Positions 9,826 to 12,902 are shown, counted from the first letter of the stretch. The stretch is 49,835 nucleotides of DNA from Candidatus Uhrbacteria bacterium RIFOXYB12_FULL_58_10 (GCA_943357275.1 CALRGL010000001.1:1-49835); one strand, 5' to 3'. A program made the numbers and translations. Notes: generated from the sequence alone by a model not told the origin.

Positions 9826-11400
9826 CTATTCTTCGTCGACCGGCGAGGACTCGAAAGCCCCACCACCGATCTCCGAGACATAACGCAAGACCGCGTCGGA
9901 CCAACCATGCACGTAATGCACGTCCGAAGTAGACTCCGGCACAACGCGATAGGGATCAGGCACCACGGTGACGAGAACCGCCTTGGCAGCCGGAGCCACC
10001 TCAGCCTTGTATCGTCGCCACGAATCCTCGAACCGACCAATCCAGTCCTCGCTGTCCGTGATCGCGACATAGAGGTCCACCACGTCCCGCTGTTCCAGCA
10101 GACGATCGACAGGCGCGGCCATGGCCGTTCCCCCACCGCCGATCGACGAGATGGTCTGTGCGTTCGCGAGCACAGAATCGCGCGGATTCAAACGAACATC
10201 GATCACGTCGTTGCTGAAAGGCAGAACAACGGCGTTGGCAGAGCGAGCGAGCAGGCCAGCAGCGAAAATGCCAGCCACCTCCATGCAAGAGAGTTCATCC
10301 GAAGACGAACGGTACATCTTGCCTGGGACATTCGGCTTGATCGGACAATGCATGGAACCCGAGACGTCCGGAGCAATACACACACGCCCGGTGAAGAGCG
10401 GCATGTTCGCAACGGAGTTGGTCAACGCGTCGGAGAGGGCCGCCACGATCCGAAGGTCGTGTCCCTCCAAAGCCGAGTACGCCTTCCACGCCTGGTACGC
10501 ACGAAACGGAAGAATCTTCGCCTGACGCATCGCGCCTTCTCGAGTGAGCTTGCTCACGGCAAGTTCCACACTCTGCGAGTTCGCGAATACACCATGACGA
10601 TGAAACGTCGCCAAGTTCCGCATCAAGTTGAAAGTGGGTGCCTGCTCGAGCAGTGCCCGCCACACCTCGACGTCCGGAGACGTCACGACCGCCGACACTG
10701 CCTCGTAGGGAAGCCGACCCTCACGGATCAACTGCACCTGCTCGGCAACATCCGTCGTCCCCTTGAGCTTCTGAAGTGCCATCACGGACGCATTGACCGA
10801 AACGCTCTTGCTCTCGACATGGCCCGAAAGCCAGCCGAAGAGCTCACGCTTCTGATCACTGCTCGGCTTGGGATGAGCCATCCGGACCAGGTCGCGCAGA
10901 GGCATCTTCTCCATCTGCGTCCCCTTGATCCCGTGATACTCGGACAAAGACTCGAGGAACGTCTTCACGGACCCGATCCGGCACCCGGCGAACTTCTCCG
11001 CACCCGGCACCGCGCCGGTCTTGCAGATCAGGACGAACTGGGCAACGTCACGAGGCACCTTCAACACCCGCTTGGCCGTCTCACGGAACAGCTCCTTGTT
11101 GGGGAGCCCCGAGAGCACGACGACCGCGAGAATCGGAAGTGTACGCATGAAACCCTCTTCACGAGCGCTGATCGCCTCCTCCGCGAGCGCGACCGCGTCC
11201 TGCTCGCCGAAGCGACGCAGGGTCTCGATCGTCTCGACAGCATCCTGCTGAGCCGACACATAGAACGTGCCGGAGAGCGTGCCACAACGAAGGAAGTTAC
11301 GAACCTGGTCACGCAGGCCGTGCTTGTAGGCAGGCGCGCCGGCGTGATTCAGATTGGCAGACTGAGCAACCGCGGAAAGGGTCTGGATGAACTGGGACAT
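9826..11400 (-). CDS. rsr: Ro60-related TROVE + vWA protein (bacterial Ro ortholog, Rsr)
   Basis: 524 aa. The N-terminus is TROVE-like (NLNHAGAPAYKHG...RCGTLSGTFYVSAQQ). The C-terminal vWA domain has a MIDAS motif (IAPDVSGSM) followed by GGGGTAMAAP. SD is AAGGAG (caaggagatcgaaATG). Confidence 0.8.
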   Translation of the reverse strand: MSQFIQTLSAVAQSANLNHAGAPAYKHGLRDQVRNFLRCGTLSGTFYVSAQQDAVETIETLRRFGEQDAVALAEEAISAREEGFMRTLPILAVVVLSGLPNKELFRETAKRVLKVPRDVAQFVLICKTGAVPGAEKFAGCRIGSVKTFLESLSEYHGIKGTQMEKMPLRDLVRMAHPKPSSDQKRELFGWLSGHVESKSVSVNASVMALQKLKGTTDVAEQVQLIREGRLPYEAVSAVVTSPDVEVWRALLEQAPTFNLMRNLATFHRHGVFANSQSVELAVSKLTREGAMRQAKILPFRAYQAWKAYSALEGHDLRIVAALSDALTNSVANMPLFTGRVCIAPDVSGSMHCPIKPNVPGKMYRSSSDELSCMEVAGIFAAGLLARSANAVVLPFSNDVIDVRLNPRDSVLANAQTISSIGGGGTAMAAPVDRLLEQRDVVDLYVAITDSEDWIGRFEDSWRRYKAEVAPAAKAVLVTVVPDPYRVVPESTSDVHYVHGWSDAVLRYVSEIGGGAFESSPVDEE

Positions 11401-11448
11401 TTCGATCTCCTTGAGAGATGAAGGGAAACCACGACACCGAGGAAATTC

Positions 11449-11517
11449 GGTAGCCGCAGGCTTTAGCCTGCGCGATGTGTTTTTGGAAACACACGCAGGC
11501 TAAAGCCTGCGGCTACC
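11449..11517. repeat. 69-nt near-perfect palindrome just upstream of the rsr start
   Basis: GGTAGCC-GCAGGCTTTAGCCTGC-G-cgat-GTGTTTttggAAACAC-a-C-GCAGGCTAAAGCCTGC-GGCTACC. It can fold as one long hairpin. Alternatively it folds as a 7-bp closing stem with three short hairpins, which is cloverleaf-like. Confidence 0.7.
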
Positions 11518-11554
11518 ATCAATATTCAATCGAATCAATCCAAATTTTGGCAAC

Positions 11555-11592
11555 AAAAAAACTGGGGAAAGTCATTTTCTGAATCTCCCCAG
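11555..11592 (-). terminator. Rho-independent terminator ending the upstream ncRNA region
   Basis: Minus sense: CTGGGGA-N17-TCCCCAG followed by TTTTTTTG. Confidence 0.55.
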
Positions 11593-11710
11593 ATTCATTT
11601 ATTCTATTCTTAATTTCTCGAGACAACGCATGGTAGTCTCAAAAAAGGAAGAGAGGACATCGACATCGAAACATCGACGTCCTCAGAAGACAAACTTTCG
11701 GCGAAAAGAA

Positions 11711-11762
11711 TCGACAGGGCCTTTTTGAAGTTGGTAGAAGGATCCCCATCTGTCGGCCTAAA
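11711..11762 (-). repeat. Conserved ncRNA motif, copy 1
   Basis: Plus strand: CGACAGggcc...GAAGGATCCCCatCTGTCGGCCTAA. The flanking stem is CGACAG/CTGTCG. Confidence 0.6.
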
Positions 11763-12277
11763 GTTTGGAAACCCCCTAACGCTTGTGAAGAAAACACGAG
11801 CGTTAGGGGTCGCCTATCACAGATCGAACGTGTCTAGAGGATCTTTCTACGAGAGGGGCATGACTCCCTGCTTCTAGATTCCCAGAAAACCTTTCGACGT
11901 GTGATATGGAGACGTCGTAGCACCTTCAGGTTGAGGTAGCTAATCCCAACCTCGAAGTCCGTGTTAGCCTAAAGGGTCTCAATCCTTCGGCCACAGTACT
12001 CTAGGTCAAACATGCCTAGTTGATCGACCGCAGAGGATTCTGCCTGTCATCGATCTTTTTTCCCAAGAGCTCCCATGGGGAGTTTGGACGTAAAATGGCT
12101 CGTATCTGAGCCTAAAACGTGAGAACGAGAGCTTTTGGCGAGACCGGCACACGTACGAGCCGGGTAGGTTGGGCCTTGATGAACCATGCTGGGACGCCCA
12201 GCGAAAAGGTTGTCGTTGAGAGACATCATCGTCACCATGACGACAAGCTCTCTGCCTAAGGGTCGTTTGCACCACCC

Positions 12278-12318
12278 TTTGGCAATGTTTTTTGAAGGAT
12301 CCCCACCAAACGGCCTAA
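12278..12318 (-). repeat. Conserved ncRNA motif, copy 2
   Basis: Plus strand: TTTGGcaatgttttttGAAGGATCCCCaCCAAACGGCCTAA. The flanking stem is TTTGG/CCAAA. Confidence 0.6.
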
Positions 12319-12464
12319 GCTCAGACACAAGACACCAAGACACTTGGAAACCAGTACGACGGGCCGCGCGAACAGCCACGGAGGTCCATCCAACAGGATT
12401 GCCGGATGCGGACACAAGGAACAAACGTGCTTCGGCGAATATCCTTCCTTGTTTTGCAAGGTCG

Positions 12465-12519
12465 GACGGGCGACAGGGCCTCTTATAGTGGTATGAAGGA
12501 TCCCCGTCTAGCGGCCTAA
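12465..12519 (-). repeat. Conserved ncRNA motif, copy 3
   Basis: Plus strand: GACGGGcgacagggcc...GAAGGATCCCCGTCtagCGGCCTAA. The flanking stem is GACGGG/CCCGTC. Confidence 0.6.
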
Positions 12520-12873
12520 CACGCCTGGGGCGGATAACCACCCCTAGGATACGGCTCGTTTTTCGCTTGCATCTGGGGGTTGCAAGAGAAAACGCGAGAC
12601 CTATTCTAGGGGCGATAGTGCTCCCAAGAAAGCCAACACTCTTTTAATAAATTCATCCGGCCTTTAGGCAGGACTCCGAAGTGTCGTTTCAAGATTTCTT
12701 CAACAAGATCCAGTAGTGTCTCTCTTTTCAGGGTGAAATCACGAAACGATCAGTTCAGAAAGGAACAAGTCCTGAATTCTTCTCCGAGTTTATCGATGAA
12801 TCTTCATCTGCAAACTCGGACAAGAATTACATATACGTTTGATTTGTTTTTGTCTGTTTCAACCGTACGGATC

Positions 12874-12902
12874 AGACTATCACAGGACCCTCACCATGTC
12901 AA
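12874..12902 (-). promoter_or_regulatory. Sigma70-type promoter (TTGACA-N17-TAGTCT) reading leftward into the ncRNA region
   Basis: Minus sense: TTGACAtggtgagggtcctgtgaTAGTCT. Confidence 0.45.

What the first reader, a model, noticed from the sequence alone, without database searches (positions are those of the whole stretch)
9826..12902. Ro60/TROVE-vWA (Rsr) gene next to a 1.3-kb ORF-free, promoter/terminator-bounded region with three copies of a conserved motif: candidate new Y-RNA-like ncRNA cluster
Seen in the sequence:
- A clear TROVE + vWA (MIDAS DVSGSM) protein at 9826-11400.
- Directly upstream on the same strand, 11596-12872 has no credible ORF. It is bracketed by a TTGACA-N17-TAGTCT promoter (12874-12902) and a hairpin plus T-run terminator (11555-11592).
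- This region contains three copies of GAAGGATCCCC-N6/7-CGGCCTAA (11737-11762, 12294-12318, 12495-12519).
- In each copy the variable spacer pairs with a different upstream segment: CGACAG/CTGTCG, TTTGG/CCAAA and GACGGG/CCCGTC. That is covariation-like, but it rests on only three copies.
- In minus sense the core also folds as a small hairpin (GANGG-GGAU-CCUUC).
- The hexamer GCCTAA occurs six times on one strand within ~800 nt (11756, 11967, 12110, 12254, 12313, 12514).

Established knowledge: bacterial and phage Ro60 orthologs bind Y RNAs that are normally encoded within a few kb of rsr. The YrlA class carries a tRNA-like module.

Inference: these repeats are Ro-binding or effector modules of several Y-like RNAs. 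I could not recognise the canonical GGUCCGA-type Ro-binding helix or a T-arm, so if they do bind Ro they are a divergent class.
Basis: partly seen in the sequence, partly recalled or inferred. Interest (0 to 1): 0.85.

Follow-up and report, generated by a model that had tools for sequence, protein, structure and literature searches.

The report
Three Y-RNA-like modules beside Rsr
Just upstream of a bacterial Ro60 (Rsr) gene lies a roughly 1.3-kb non-coding transcription unit carrying three copies of a conserved, covarying stem-loop module that resembles a Y RNA without its tRNA-like part, which is a divergent and uncatalogued form of the RNA partners Ro60 is known to use.

Summary
The 25-nt motif occurs three times, against 0.00 expected by chance. 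The 524-aa protein is a genuine Ro60/Rsr.

Comparative work was done on about 20 related loci, from Candidatus Uhrbacteria and other candidate-phyla-radiation (CPR) assemblies. It shows that each motif copy is the 5' half of a structured unit of 82-199 nt, read in rsr sense.
- The spacer plus GGGG-WU pairs with a second conserved element, A-rich + RGNCCYU-RYC, to form P2.
- NCWUC opens a variable apical region.

Sixteen of 23 base pairs show compensatory changes, and no shuffle out of 500 reached the observed values. A covariance model finds exactly these three units in the 49.8-kb window. In 654 kb of rsr loci it finds units only upstream of rsr, on the rsr strand, and only in this clade.

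The stem topology resembles the Rsr-binding stem of YrlA and the bulged-C helix of metazoan Y RNAs. The tRNA-like arms are absent, and the Rfam YrlA and tRNA models give no hit. A TrmB-type regulator gene and a palindromic box upstream are conserved in synteny.

Verdict: a new variant of a known kind, namely a polycistronic array of YrlB/Yrn2-like Y RNAs. Rsr binding and processing are inferred, not shown.

The parts
13441..14238 (-). TrmB-family HTH transcription regulator gene (265 aa), directly upstream of the non-coding unit on the same strand; candidate regulator of the locus
   Evidence: Pfam TrmB at 4.8e-14. An ortholog sits upstream of rsr on the same strand in L001-L007, L009, L010, L016, L094, L095 (46-82% identity) and in the more distant L017 and L060 (gene calls).
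12931..12942 (.). Palindromic box GCTAAATTTAGC, about 30 nt upstream of the -35 hexamer; candidate operator
   Evidence: Conserved at the same position relative to the promoter in WIN, L001, L002, L004, L092 and, in variant form, in L003, L005, L007, L011. Its function is inferred.
12874..12902 (-). Promoter: -35 TTGACA (12902-12897), 17-nt spacer, extended -10 TGaTAGTCT (12882-12874)
   Evidence: The same hexamers and spacing occur in nine related loci whose flanking sequence has diverged. The generic promoter scan missed it.
12531..12869 (-). 5' domain of the transcript: conserved leader CGUACGGUUGAAACAGAC (12869-12852), hairpin H1 (12828-12775, contains GUCCGAG), and a long irregular hairpin (12614-12539) capped by a stem-loop with loop ACCCCCAGA (12586-12566)
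   Evidence: 71% identical to L002 over 330 nt. The CCCCAG-loop hairpin recurs in 12 loci with compensatory stem changes. Its role is unknown.
12426..12530 (-). Unit A (105 nt). P1 5' strand 12523-12514 (CGUGUUAGGC), bulged C 12513, P2 5' strand 12508-12496 (GACGGGG-AU-CCUU), P2 3' strand 12482-12472 (GAGG-CCCUGUC), hairpin P3 12467-12441, P1 3' strand 12437-12426 (CGCCGAAGCACG)
   Evidence: CM R1 scores 58.1 bits, E 8e-14. The MFE and centroid folds recover P1 and P2.
12129..12327 (-). Unit B (199 nt). P1 5' strand 12322-12313 (GAGCUUAGGC), P2 5' strand 12307-12295, three inserted hairpins, P2 3' strand 12177-12167 (AAGG-CCCAACC), hairpin 12163-12144, P1 3' strand 12140-12129 (CGCCAAAAGCUC). 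An alternative 3' partner lies at 12117-12099
   Evidence: This unit was not in the CM seed. R1 still finds its 5' part with E about 1e-3 and R2 gives 39 bits. Its 5' half is orthologous to the last unit of L002 and L090. Folding z-score -3.4, and the centroid shows P1 and P2. The 3' boundary is the least certain of the three.
11773..12128 (-). Lineage-specific insert of about 356 nt between units B and C. It is predicted to be highly structured, contains two further UUAGGC hexamers, and ends in the hairpin 11809-11773
   Evidence: Absent from L002 and L090. No homolog in any fetched locus. Function unknown.
11691..11772 (-). Unit C (82 nt, the minimal form). P1 5' strand 11767-11756 (CAAACUUUAGGC), bulged C 11755, G-A 11754-11753, P2 5' strand 11750-11738 (GAUGGGG-AU-CCUU), apical loop 11737-11724 (CUACCAACUUCAAA), P2 3' strand 11723-11713 (AAGG-CCCUGUC), 8-nt 3' internal loop 11712-11705, P1 3' strand 11704-11691 (UCGCCGAAAGUUUG)
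   Evidence: CM R1 scores 67 bits, E 3e-16. The MFE and centroid folds agree.
11641..11684 (-). Hairpin GAGGACG...CGUCCUC followed by a pyrimidine/U-rich tract; a possible first terminator or 3' end of the last unit
   Evidence: Flagged as terminator-like. Conserved in L002 and L090 with a compensatory change, GAGG/CCUC against GGGG/CCCC.
11554..11592 (-). Intrinsic terminator CUGGGGAG...CCCCAG plus U7, between the non-coding unit and rsr
   Evidence: The stem CUGGGG/CCCCAG plus a U-run is conserved 50-170 nt upstream of rsr in WIN, L003, L004, L005, L090, L092, L094, L095 and L096.
11449..11517 (-). Hairpin with perfect 24-bp arms in the rsr 5' UTR
   Evidence: I1. L002 and L060 carry a different long hairpin at the same place. 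Role unknown.
9826..11400 (-). rsr: Ro60 ortholog (TROVE ring plus vWA/MIDAS domain), 524 aa

Best explanation
**What it is**
- The 2-kb gap between a TrmB-type regulator gene and rsr holds one sigma70-type transcription unit of about 1.23-1.32 kb. It runs from a start near 12867 to a terminator at 11641 or 11554.
- This unit is a polycistronic Y-RNA locus.

**Architecture of the three modules (A, B, C)**
- Each module has a long terminal stem, P1. Its inner end is the conserved helix 5'-(U)UAGGC[C]G(A) / 3'-(A)AGCCG-C(U).
- An asymmetric internal loop follows, then a second helix, P2 (NNN-GGGG-WU paired with A-rich-RGNCCYU-NNN).
- The apical part begins with the conserved single-stranded NCWUC. 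It continues as a small pyrimidine-containing loop in unit C or as one to three variable hairpins in units A and B.

**How it most likely works (inferred)**
- The Rsr ring binds the conserved P1 helix, as Ro60 binds the GGUC[C]GA helix of Y RNAs.
- The apical part tethers an effector, by analogy with PNPase in D. radiodurans.
- This would adapt Rsr for handling structured or misfolded RNA.
- The TrmB-like protein, acting at the palindromic box, would set when the array is made.

**Shown and inferred**
- Shown: conservation, strand, synteny, base-pair covariation, and the absence of coding potential and of tRNA-like arms.
- Inferred: Rsr binding, effector tethering, processing into separate small RNAs, and regulation by TrmB.
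For: **Location and specificity**
- 38 motif instances in about 20 loci of the Rsr clade all lie upstream of rsr on its strand, two to four per locus.
- CM R1 finds only the three units in the whole window on both strands.
- In 654 kb of rsr loci, R1 gives 24 hits at E < 0.02. All are in this clade, on the rsr strand and upstream of rsr.

**Structure**
- On a raw MAFFT alignment of 15 units, 81% of cells are paired and 13 of 23 pairs change on both sides. No shuffle out of 500 reached these values. Slid controls give 37-54% paired.
- On the 25-sequence CM alignment, 16 of 23 pairs change on both sides, again 0/500.
- P1 native duplex energy is -17.2 kcal/mol against -9.9 +/- 0.6 for permuted partners, 0/10000.
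- P2 native energy is -13.4 against -10.3 +/- 0.5, 0/10000.
- Many G-U pairs occur: 40 in P1, and G-U is the dominant type at five P2 positions. This fixes the rsr-sense strand.

**Resemblance to Y RNAs**
- The 5' strand is A-G-G-C-C-G. It extends to GCCGAAUG, a match to GNCGAAN0-1G, in several units.
- The topology is P1, internal loop, GGGG/CCCC helix, then CUNC. This parallels the Rfam YrlA consensus stem and the description in PMC4201824.
- L028 and L056 carry the same core joined to a T arm.
- Precedent: in D. radiodurans, Yrn2, tRNA-Asp and Yrn1 are made as one precursor upstream of rsr. [quoted passage not shown]

**Other support**
- The protein is a true Ro60.
- The promoter, operator-like box, terminator and TrmB synteny are conserved.
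Against: - There is no expression or binding data.
- The G19-C70 pair and the bulged C are conserved but do not covary. The 'bulged-C Ro site' is therefore a resemblance, not a demonstrated structure. In the L006/L007/L015 sub-clade that pair would be A.C.
- The window's own copies have GCCG-CUA, GCCG-UUU and GCCG-ACA rather than GNCGAA on the 5' strand.
- Neither Rfam YrlA nor my CM links these units statistically to YrlA-type RNAs. R1 gives nothing in L033, L034 or L040 and only 13.6 bits in L053.
- Single-sequence folding z-scores of units A and C are modest, at -1.8 and -1.6.
- The 3' arms used for the P1 permutation test were chosen partly by complementarity.
- About 10 of the 38 instances (for example L003_4959, L010_3298, L011_802, L013_1191) do not fit the P1/P2 model cleanly.
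- The 5' domain (about 340 nt) and the 356-nt insert are unexplained.
Confidence: 0.7

Rival explanations
1. One large multi-domain RNA, not several small ones. On this reading the roughly 1.3-kb transcript stays intact and acts as a scaffold carrying three Rsr-binding stems plus the 5' domain. It would assemble a multivalent Rsr particle, comparable in size to other large bacterial ncRNAs.
For: - There is a single conserved promoter, and terminators occur only at the end.
- Conserved structured sequence lies outside the units: the 5' domain, the CCCCAG hairpin and an inter-unit hairpin.
- No processing element such as a tRNA or an RNase P substrate was found in the window.
- The non-coding gaps in relatives are 1-5.4 kb long.
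Against: - Each unit is closed by its own terminal stem, which is the form of a stand-alone Y RNA.
- Unit number and spacing vary freely between close relatives, and a 356-nt insert is tolerated between units. This argues against one fixed global fold.
- The D. radiodurans precedent is a precursor that is processed.
Confidence: 0.18
2. A cis-regulatory leader of rsr. On this reading the modules are Rsr-binding sites in a long 5' leader. Rsr occupancy would change folding, for example competition between the CCCCAG loop and the CUGGGG/CCCCAG terminator. That would control read-through into rsr, giving autoregulation.
For: - The modules share a strand with rsr and lie directly upstream of it.
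- A conserved terminator sits between them and rsr, and its 3' arm (CCCCAG) is duplicated in a conserved hairpin loop of the 5' domain.
- A long hairpin is present in the rsr 5' UTR.
Against: - The distance from the loop to the terminator is about 1 kb.
- Two or more strong stem-loops followed by U or pyrimidine tracts precede rsr.
- The sequence after the terminator (GUUGCCAAAAUUUGAUU) is conserved and could be rsr's own promoter.
- Multiple units and large variable insertions are not expected of an attenuator.
- This reading is not exclusive of the main explanation.
Confidence: 0.1
3. Not an RNA element at all: chance repeats, a REP/MITE-like mobile repeat, or decayed coding sequence.
For: - ORFs of up to 164 aa overlap the region.
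- The GGATCC core is palindromic.
- UUAGGC is self-complementary when G.U pairs are allowed.
Against: - The motif is expected 0.00 times by chance.
- It occurs nowhere else in the window, and only upstream of rsr in relatives.
- Base-pair changes are compensatory and G-U usage is strand-specific.
- There is no protein-level conservation and no Pfam hit.
- 32 exact pattern matches in viral contigs were all single hits, and none was confirmed by the CM.
Confidence: 0.02

Closest known systems
YrlB (S. [quoted passage not shown]
   Same: - Encoded next to rsr on the same strand.
- The terminal stem is formed by the 5' and 3' ends and carries a Ro-binding-type motif.
- There are no T or D arms.
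- Unit C is an 82-nt long hairpin with a 14-nt C/U-rich loop.
- Yrn2 is also made from a polycistronic precursor upstream of rsr.
   Different: - No sequence homology could be tested, because those sequences were not at hand.
- Here there are three paralogous copies sharing an invariant core GGG-W-U-N-C-W-U-C and a second conserved element.
- Units A and B carry extra hairpins.
- No tRNA-like Y RNA or tRNA accompanies them.
- The host is a CPR (Patescibacteria) bacterium.
YrlA (Rfam RF02553), the tRNA-like bacterial Y RNA
   Same: - The stem topology matches. P1 contains G-N-C-G-A (cggCga/ucGccg). An asymmetric internal loop follows, with about 9 nt on the 3' side. Then comes P2 with GGGG/CCCC (uggGgaa/uucCcca), followed by CUAc.
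- The units here have AGGC[C]GA/UCGCC, an 8-9-nt 3' loop in the minimal unit, GGGGWU/RGNCCYU, and then NCWUC.
- Both lie within a few kb of rsr on the same strand.
   Different: - The T, acceptor-like and D arms that define YrlA are absent.
- The YrlA and tRNA covariance models give no hit even at E <= 10.
- The same library detects YrlA in L033, L034 and L040.
- There is an extra, possibly bulged, C in the P1 helix.
Metazoan Y RNAs and D. radiodurans Yrn1: Ro60-binding helix GGUC[C]GA with a bulged C, both strands conserved
   Same: [quoted passage not shown]
- The sequence 5'-GGC[C]GA with a possible single bulged C, followed by G-C and A-U pairs, is one nucleotide different from GGUC[C]GA. 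This statement rests on my knowledge of the hY1 and Xenopus Y3 structures and.
   Different: - The U of GGUCCGA is missing.
- A conserved A.G mismatch occurs two pairs below in most sub-clades.
- The bulge is not proven by covariation.
- The RNAs are bacterial, sigma70-transcribed and arranged in tandem.
Tandem tRNA-like Y RNAs upstream of rsr in other lineages (for example L018, with three tRNA-model hits of 108-132 nt)
   Same: Arrays of two to four Rsr-linked structured modules sit on the rsr strand immediately next to the gene.
   Different: Those modules score as tRNA. The modules here do not.

Membership tests
Bacterial Y RNA (Rsr/Ro60-associated ncRNA, sensu Chen et al. 2014) | Encoded within about 4 kb of the Ro60 ortholog, on the same DNA strand | tested here: met
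   The units lie 291-1130 nt upstream of the rsr start on the - strand. The same arrangement holds in all clade loci.
Bacterial Y RNA (Rsr/Ro60-associated ncRNA, sensu Chen et al. 2014) | Long stem formed by pairing of the 5' and 3' ends of the RNA | tested here: met
   P1 has 10-19 bp and its sequence differs in nearly every unit. 11 of 14 P1 pairs show double-sided changes. 0/500 shuffles and 0/10000 permutations reached the observed values.
Bacterial Y RNA (Rsr/Ro60-associated ncRNA, sensu Chen et al. 2014) | Ro-binding motif in that stem (GGUCCGA-type bulged helix, or GNCGAAN0-1G near the 5' end) | tested here: inconclusive
   AGGC-C-G is nearly invariant on the 5' strand and C-GCC on the 3' strand. 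The full GCCGAAUG or GCCGAAG form occurs in some relatives. The window copies have only GCCG-N on the 5' strand, and GCCGAA(A)G on the 3' strand of units A and C. The bulged C and the G-C pair are conserved but do not covary.
Bacterial Y RNA (Rsr/Ro60-associated ncRNA, sensu Chen et al. 2014) | Physically bound by Rsr and dependent on Rsr for stable accumulation | not testable with these tools
   Needs immunoprecipitation or EMSA.
YrlA (Rfam RF02553) | tRNA-like domain with T arm, D arm and acceptor-like stem; score at or above the family's gathering threshold | tested here: not met
   No YrlA or tRNA hit in 9500-13500 at E <= 10. None at the gathering threshold in the window or in L001-L009. 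ARAGORN finds nothing there. Positive control: YrlA is found in L033 and L034.
YrlB / Yrn2 type Y RNA | [quoted passage not shown] | tested here: met
   Unit C is an 82-nt hairpin with the 14-nt loop CUACCAACUUCAAA. L095_3170 (86 nt) is similar. Units A and B add hairpins. Sequence similarity to the published YrlB and Yrn2 was not tested.
Ro60 / Rsr protein | TROVE (HEAT-repeat ring) domain followed by a vWA domain with a MIDAS motif | tested here: met
   Pfam TROVE and vWA_Ro60 both score above their cutoffs. PDB matches span residues 18-503. DVSGSM is present and the motif is invariant in the clade.
Known large bacterial ncRNAs (OLE, GOLLD, ROOL, HEARO, raiA and others in Rfam 15) | Match to the family covariance model | tested here: not met
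   No Rfam family hits 11.4-13.3 kb apart from chance miRNA-like hits on the palindrome.

The most novel reading that the evidence does not exclude
The array is not just a Y-RNA precursor. It would be a functional 1-5-kb multi-domain RNA, specific to CPR bacteria, that loads several Rsr rings side by side. A TrmB-family sensor would regulate it. Its 5' CCCCAG loop would couple its own folding or occupancy to read-through of the CUGGGG/CCCCAG terminator into rsr. That would make a self-regulating, multivalent Ro RNP with no tRNA-like module at all. It would contradict the current rule that every Ro60-containing bacterium keeps one tRNA-like Y RNA.
Probability: 0.12. Interest if true: 0.8.

Novelty: new variant of a known kind. 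Interest (0 to 1): 0.6.

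Why it matters
- **Current state of knowledge.** Bacterial Y RNAs have been characterised in only three species. Bioinformatically they are known almost only through the tRNA-like YrlA model. The authors of that survey noted that some Ro60-containing bacteria had no detectable Y RNA and expected variants.
- **What this locus adds.** It supplies such a variant for a whole Rsr clade in CPR/Patescibacteria, organisms with minimal genomes and no cultured model.
- **Testable structure.** It comes with a two-helix model backed by covariation, and a covariance model that could be added to Rfam.
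[quoted passage not shown] Its P1 helix is closer to the metazoan bulged-C site than YrlA's is.
- **Regulation.** The conserved TrmB-type regulator and operator-like box give a handle on when the system is induced. Until now that was known only for RtcR/sigma54 in Salmonella and UV induction in Deinococcus.

Tried and rejected
1. **Local hairpin around the core.** Native energy was -6.86 against -6.63 +/- 0.34 for permuted 3' parts, which is not significant. It is also incompatible with P2.
2. **Unconstrained duplex search.** I searched the 5' arm against 300 nt downstream. Native was -16.7 against -15.1 for cross pairs, which is too noisy because any 16-mer finds a partner. I replaced it with a junction-anchored test.
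The proposed GACGGG/CCCGUC (copy A) and UUUGG/CCAAA (copy B) are decoys. Homologous units pair NNN-GGGG with CCYU-NNN of the conserved second element.
4. **Coding potential.** Seven ORFs from both strands have no Pfam hit and no conserved translation.
5. **Rfam.** No family matches except miRNA-like chance hits on the 24-bp palindrome.
6. **Phage origin.** An exact-pattern scan of 2.9 million viral contigs gave 32 single matches, and the CM confirmed none.
7. **Second-iteration model R2.** It seemed to reach a distant Rsr clade (L046, L053, L056, L058). However, L053 entered its training set as an E = 0.9 hit, and R1 alone gives only 13.6 bits there. I do not count this as evidence, although by eye L056 and L028 carry the same core next to a T arm.
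8. **Downstream DUF6847 gene.** It is seen in some relatives, but the window's downstream ORF is unrelated.
9. **Hairpin H1 as a Ro site.** H1 (12828-12775) contains GUCCGAG and was considered as a Ro site. It is an ordinary fully paired helix with a G.G mismatch and no bulged-C geometry. I left it open.
10. **Source organism.** A cluster look-up gave no names. The taxon is inferred from relatives annotated as Candidatus Uhrbacteria. Some relatives are labelled 'uncultured Gammaproteobacteria' in third-party assemblies.

Full report
**1. What is in the sequence**

The ORF at 9826-11400 (-) is a Ro60/Rsr ortholog.
- Pfam gives vWA_Ro60 at 2.8e-12 and TROVE at 7.6e-8, both above their cutoffs.
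- Full-length matches in the PDB are D. radiodurans Rsr 2nvo (4e-28), RO60 (6e-19) and Xenopus Ro 1yvp (1e-14).

The motif and the hexamer behave as follows.
- GAAGGATCCCC-N6-CGGCCTAA occurs at 11737-11761, 12294-12318 and 12495-12519 and nowhere else, even with two mismatches. The chance expectation is 0.00.
- GCCTAA is not enriched across the window (10 copies against 10.75 expected). Seven of the ten copies lie within 11756-12669.

The region is not coding.
- ORFs of up to 164 aa overlap it.
- They have no Pfam hit and no conserved translation in any relative.

Rfam 15 finds no family between rsr and the upstream gene, even at E <= 10. ARAGORN finds no tRNA there.

**2. Relatives**

The Rsr protein has a clade of relatives at 49-75% identity.
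- Genome and metagenome scans, plus exact-protein look-ups, gave about 20 loci with usable upstream sequence.
- Several come from Candidatus Uhrbacteria assemblies, which belong to the Patescibacteria/CPR group. The window is therefore most likely a CPR chromosome. It also carries 23S and 5S rRNA, tRNAs and IleRS.
- In every such locus, the motif read in rsr sense recurs one to four times upstream of rsr on the rsr strand. Its consensus is YUAGGCCG-N6-8-GGGGWUNCWUC.
- An alignment of 38 instances shows GGG.U.C.UC as invariant.
- A relaxed composite pattern scanned over 717 kb, both strands, hits this position in all clade loci. Elsewhere it gives only scattered loose matches.

**3. Anatomy of one unit (rsr sense)**

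Pairing searches and folding of whole units gave one consistent architecture.
- (a) **P1.** The nucleotides 5' of, and including, UUAGGC pair with a 3' strand that always begins at a conserved junction. That junction reads (A)CCU- or UU(C)U-C-GCC, followed by (G/U)AA and the complement of the variable 5' arm.
  - P1 has 10-19 bp and a different sequence in almost every unit.
  - The anchor itself covaries: GGC/GCC, GAC/GUC, GAU/AUC, AGC/GCU, AGU/ACU.
- (b) **Junction.** After GGC come an invariant C and then G. The G can pair with the invariant C that precedes GCC, which leaves the first C bulged.
- (c) **P2.** The last three to five spacer nucleotides plus GGGG-WU pair with a second conserved element, A-rich-RGNCCYU-NNN. 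In units A and C of the window this element is (A)AGGCCCUGUC. Compensatory examples:
  - GAC/GUC, GAU/GUC, GGU/ACC or GCC, and AAC/GUU.
  - GGGC/GCCC, GGAC/GUCC, GAGC/GCUC, and GUC/GAC.
- (d) **Apical part.** NCWUC follows P2 and opens this part. It is a 14-20-nt loop in minimal units (window unit C at 82 nt; L095 at 86 nt). Elsewhere it holds one to three variable hairpins.
- (e) **Return path.** Between P2 and P1 on the 3' side there is either an 8-9-nt loop (unit C: GAUUCUUU) or a hairpin followed by ACCU.

**4. Tests of the structure**

- With 3' arms anchored at the junction, native P1 duplexes average -17.2 kcal/mol. Permuted partners give -9.9 +/- 0.6, and none of 10000 permutations reached the native value. 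The duplexes contain 305 Watson-Crick and 40 G-U pairs. Caveat: the 3' arms were picked partly by complementarity.
- Native P2 averages -13.4 kcal/mol against -10.3 +/- 0.5, again 0/10000.
- On a plain MAFFT alignment of 15 complete units, not fitted to any structure, the 23-pair model has 81% of cells paired and 13 pairs with changes on both sides. No shuffle out of 500 reached any of four measures. Sliding the 3' partner by 1-3 columns gives only 37-54% paired.
- A covariance model, R1, was built from that alignment. In the whole 49.8-kb window, both strands, it finds exactly three hits:
  - 11691-11772 at 67 bits;
  - 12425-12530 at 58 bits;
  - 12206-12329 at 20 bits, E about 1e-3. This is unit B, which was not in the seed.
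- Over 90 sources (654 kb), R1 finds 24 hits with E < 0.02. All are in the clade, on the rsr strand and upstream of rsr. Nine of them were not in the seed.
- On the resulting 25-sequence alignment, 16 of 23 pairs change on both sides in 65 cells. P2 is 94% paired, and no shuffle out of 500 reached the observed values.
- G-U is the commonest pair at five P2 positions, so the structure exists only in the rsr-sense RNA.
- The MFE and centroid folds of units A and C recover P1 and P2 on their own, with modest z-scores of -1.8 and -1.6. Unit B has z = -3.4.
- About ten of the 38 instances, mostly the first unit of some loci, do not fit the model cleanly.

**5.

- The CGGCCTAA half of the motif is the inner 5' strand of P1.
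- The GAAGGATCCCC half is the 5' strand of P2 plus the first apical bases.
- The spacer does covary, but with CCCUGUC in units A and C and with CCCAACC in unit B (12177-12167).
  - CCCGUC (copy A) and CCAAA (copy B) are local alternatives with no counterpart in orthologs.
- The GANGG-GGAU-CCUUC hairpin competes with P2 and has no comparative support.

**6. Comparison with known Y RNAs**

- Rfam does contain YrlA. It detects YrlA in distant rsr loci (L033, L034; also visible in L040). The tRNA model hits tandem 108-132-nt modules upstream of rsr in L018 and L019. The lack of hits here is therefore a real negative: there are no T, D or acceptor-like arms.
- The YrlA consensus stem has the same topology as these units. 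It runs cggCga/ucGccg, then the loop AUGCu / aAaAcUuGu, then uggGgaa/uucCcca, then CUAc.
- Chen et al. describe GNCGAAN0-1G as the likely Rsr site, resembling the GGUCCGA contacted by Xenopus Ro60.
  - Here the 5' strand is AGGC-C-G(A), and GCCGAAUG in several relatives.
  - That equals the YrlA motif plus one C, or the metazoan GGUC[C]GA minus the U.
  - This is a resemblance. The CM does not link the families statistically.
- L028 and L056, from distant Rsr clades, carry ACGGGGUUACUUCG and GUAGGGAUUACAUC followed by a T arm. This hints that the stem module is shared and the tRNA-like part is optional.
[quoted passage not shown] D. radiodurans makes Yrn2, tRNA-Asp and Yrn1 from one precursor upstream of rsr.

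**7. The whole locus**

- **Regulator.** A TrmB-family HTH gene (13441-14238, Pfam 4.8e-14) lies upstream on the same strand, both here and in at least 13 related loci.
- **Transcription signals.** The following elements are conserved:
  - the palindrome GCTAAATTTAGC (12942-12931);
  - the promoter TTGACA-N17-TGaTAGTCT (12902-12874);
  - a leader and a 5' domain with a CCCCAG-loop hairpin (12586-12566);
  - a hairpin plus pyrimidine tract after the last unit (11684-11641);
  - the terminator CUGGGG...CCCCAG-U7 (11592-11554).
- **Window-specific differences.** Relative to L002 and L090, the window carries a 356-nt insert (12128-11773) and an extra unit. The insert has no homolog in any fetched locus.
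- **Transcript size.** The predicted transcript is about 1.23-1.32 kb. The TrmB-to-rsr gaps in relatives range from 1.0 to 5.4 kb.

**8. Mechanism and rivals**

- **Best supported (0.7).** This is a TrmB-controlled polycistronic array of three Y-RNA-like modules. Rsr would bind the conserved P1 junction, and the apical NCWUC/loop region would engage an effector. The array would be cut into separate RNAs as in Deinococcus. Only the structure and the linkage are shown. Binding, processing and regulation are inferred.
- **Rivals.**
  - An unprocessed large scaffold RNA (0.18).
  - An Rsr-responsive leader or attenuator of rsr (0.10). Its main support is that the CCCCAG loop duplicates the terminator's 3' arm.
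  - A non-RNA explanation (0.02).

**9. Novelty**

- The library searches found no paper that combines Y RNA or Rsr with CPR bacteria or with TrmB.
- Rfam has no matching model.
- The kind of element is known: Y RNAs next to rsr, long-hairpin Y RNAs, and polycistronic precursors.
- I therefore rate this a new variant of a known kind, of moderate to good interest for RNA biologists. It offers a ready structural model and clear experiments.

Noticed in passing
window 11449-11517: The rsr 5' UTR carries a hairpin with perfect 24-bp arms; this is the only thing Rfam 'hits' here, as chance miRNA-like matches. L002 (5907-5955) and L060 (3883-3960) have a different long near-perfect hairpin at the same position, so the position is conserved but the sequence is not.
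   Followed up: partly
window 12566-12586 and 11554-11592; same features in L002-L005, L010, L011, L013, L090, L092, L094-L096: A hairpin in the 5' domain has the loop (A)CCCCCAG(A), and its stem changes in a compensatory way between loci. The terminator before rsr almost always has the stem CUGGGG/CCCCAG. The loop therefore copies the terminator's 3' arm, which suggests a long-range competition or antitermination switch.
   Followed up: partly
L060 3793-3847: A near-threshold type III hammerhead match (40.2 bits against a gathering score of 48.5, E about 1e-6) lies 150 nt upstream of rsr, on its strand, in a locus that also has the TrmB gene. The core CUGACGA...CGAA is present, but the 15.1/16.1 pair is swapped to U-A. 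It could be a processing ribozyme for a Y-RNA precursor.
   Followed up: partly
L028 1650-1810; L056 2165-2310; L040 5553-5800: Distant Rsr clades carry Y-like RNAs with the same core (ACGGGGUUACUUCG, GUAGGGAUUACAUC) joined to a T arm. L040 has a canonical YrlA followed by a second hairpin RNA with GGAGGGAAUGCUUCC. This suggests a shared stem module across Y RNA types, but my CM does not support it statistically.
   Followed up: partly
L018 3099-3799; L019 827-946: Three tRNA-model hits (L018) and one (L019), each 108-132 nt long with about 40-nt insertions, lie in tandem directly upstream of rsr. They are probably tRNA-like Y RNAs that the YrlA model misses.
   Followed up: no
window 11773-12128: A 356-nt insert between units B and C has no counterpart in any fetched locus. 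It is predicted to be strongly structured. It contains two more UUAGGC hexamers and a lone T-loop-like element, CACG-UUCGAUC-UGUG, at 11818-11832.
   Followed up: partly
window 9800-11400 versus 13400-17000: rsr is about 60% G+C, whereas the neighbouring TrmB and IleRS genes are 39-48%. This may point to horizontal acquisition of rsr or to a different codon regime.
   Followed up: no
window 7140-9707 (+): Three same-strand ORFs of 186, 415 and 158 aa lie downstream of rsr on the opposite strand. The last has a weak HORMA-domain hit (E 0.0047, below the cutoff). This might be a small defence-type cassette.
   Followed up: no
window 35478-38848 (-): 23S rRNA (3070 nt aligned to a 2925-nt model, so it carries insertions) and 5S rRNA are present without a 16S gene anywhere in the 49.8-kb window.
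   Followed up: no
L001, L006, L007 (TrmB end to rsr start): The gap between the TrmB gene and rsr reaches 3.1-5.4 kb in some relatives. In L001, 2.2 kb lies between the last unit and rsr. I did not examine whether these long stretches are all non-coding RNA.
   Followed up: no
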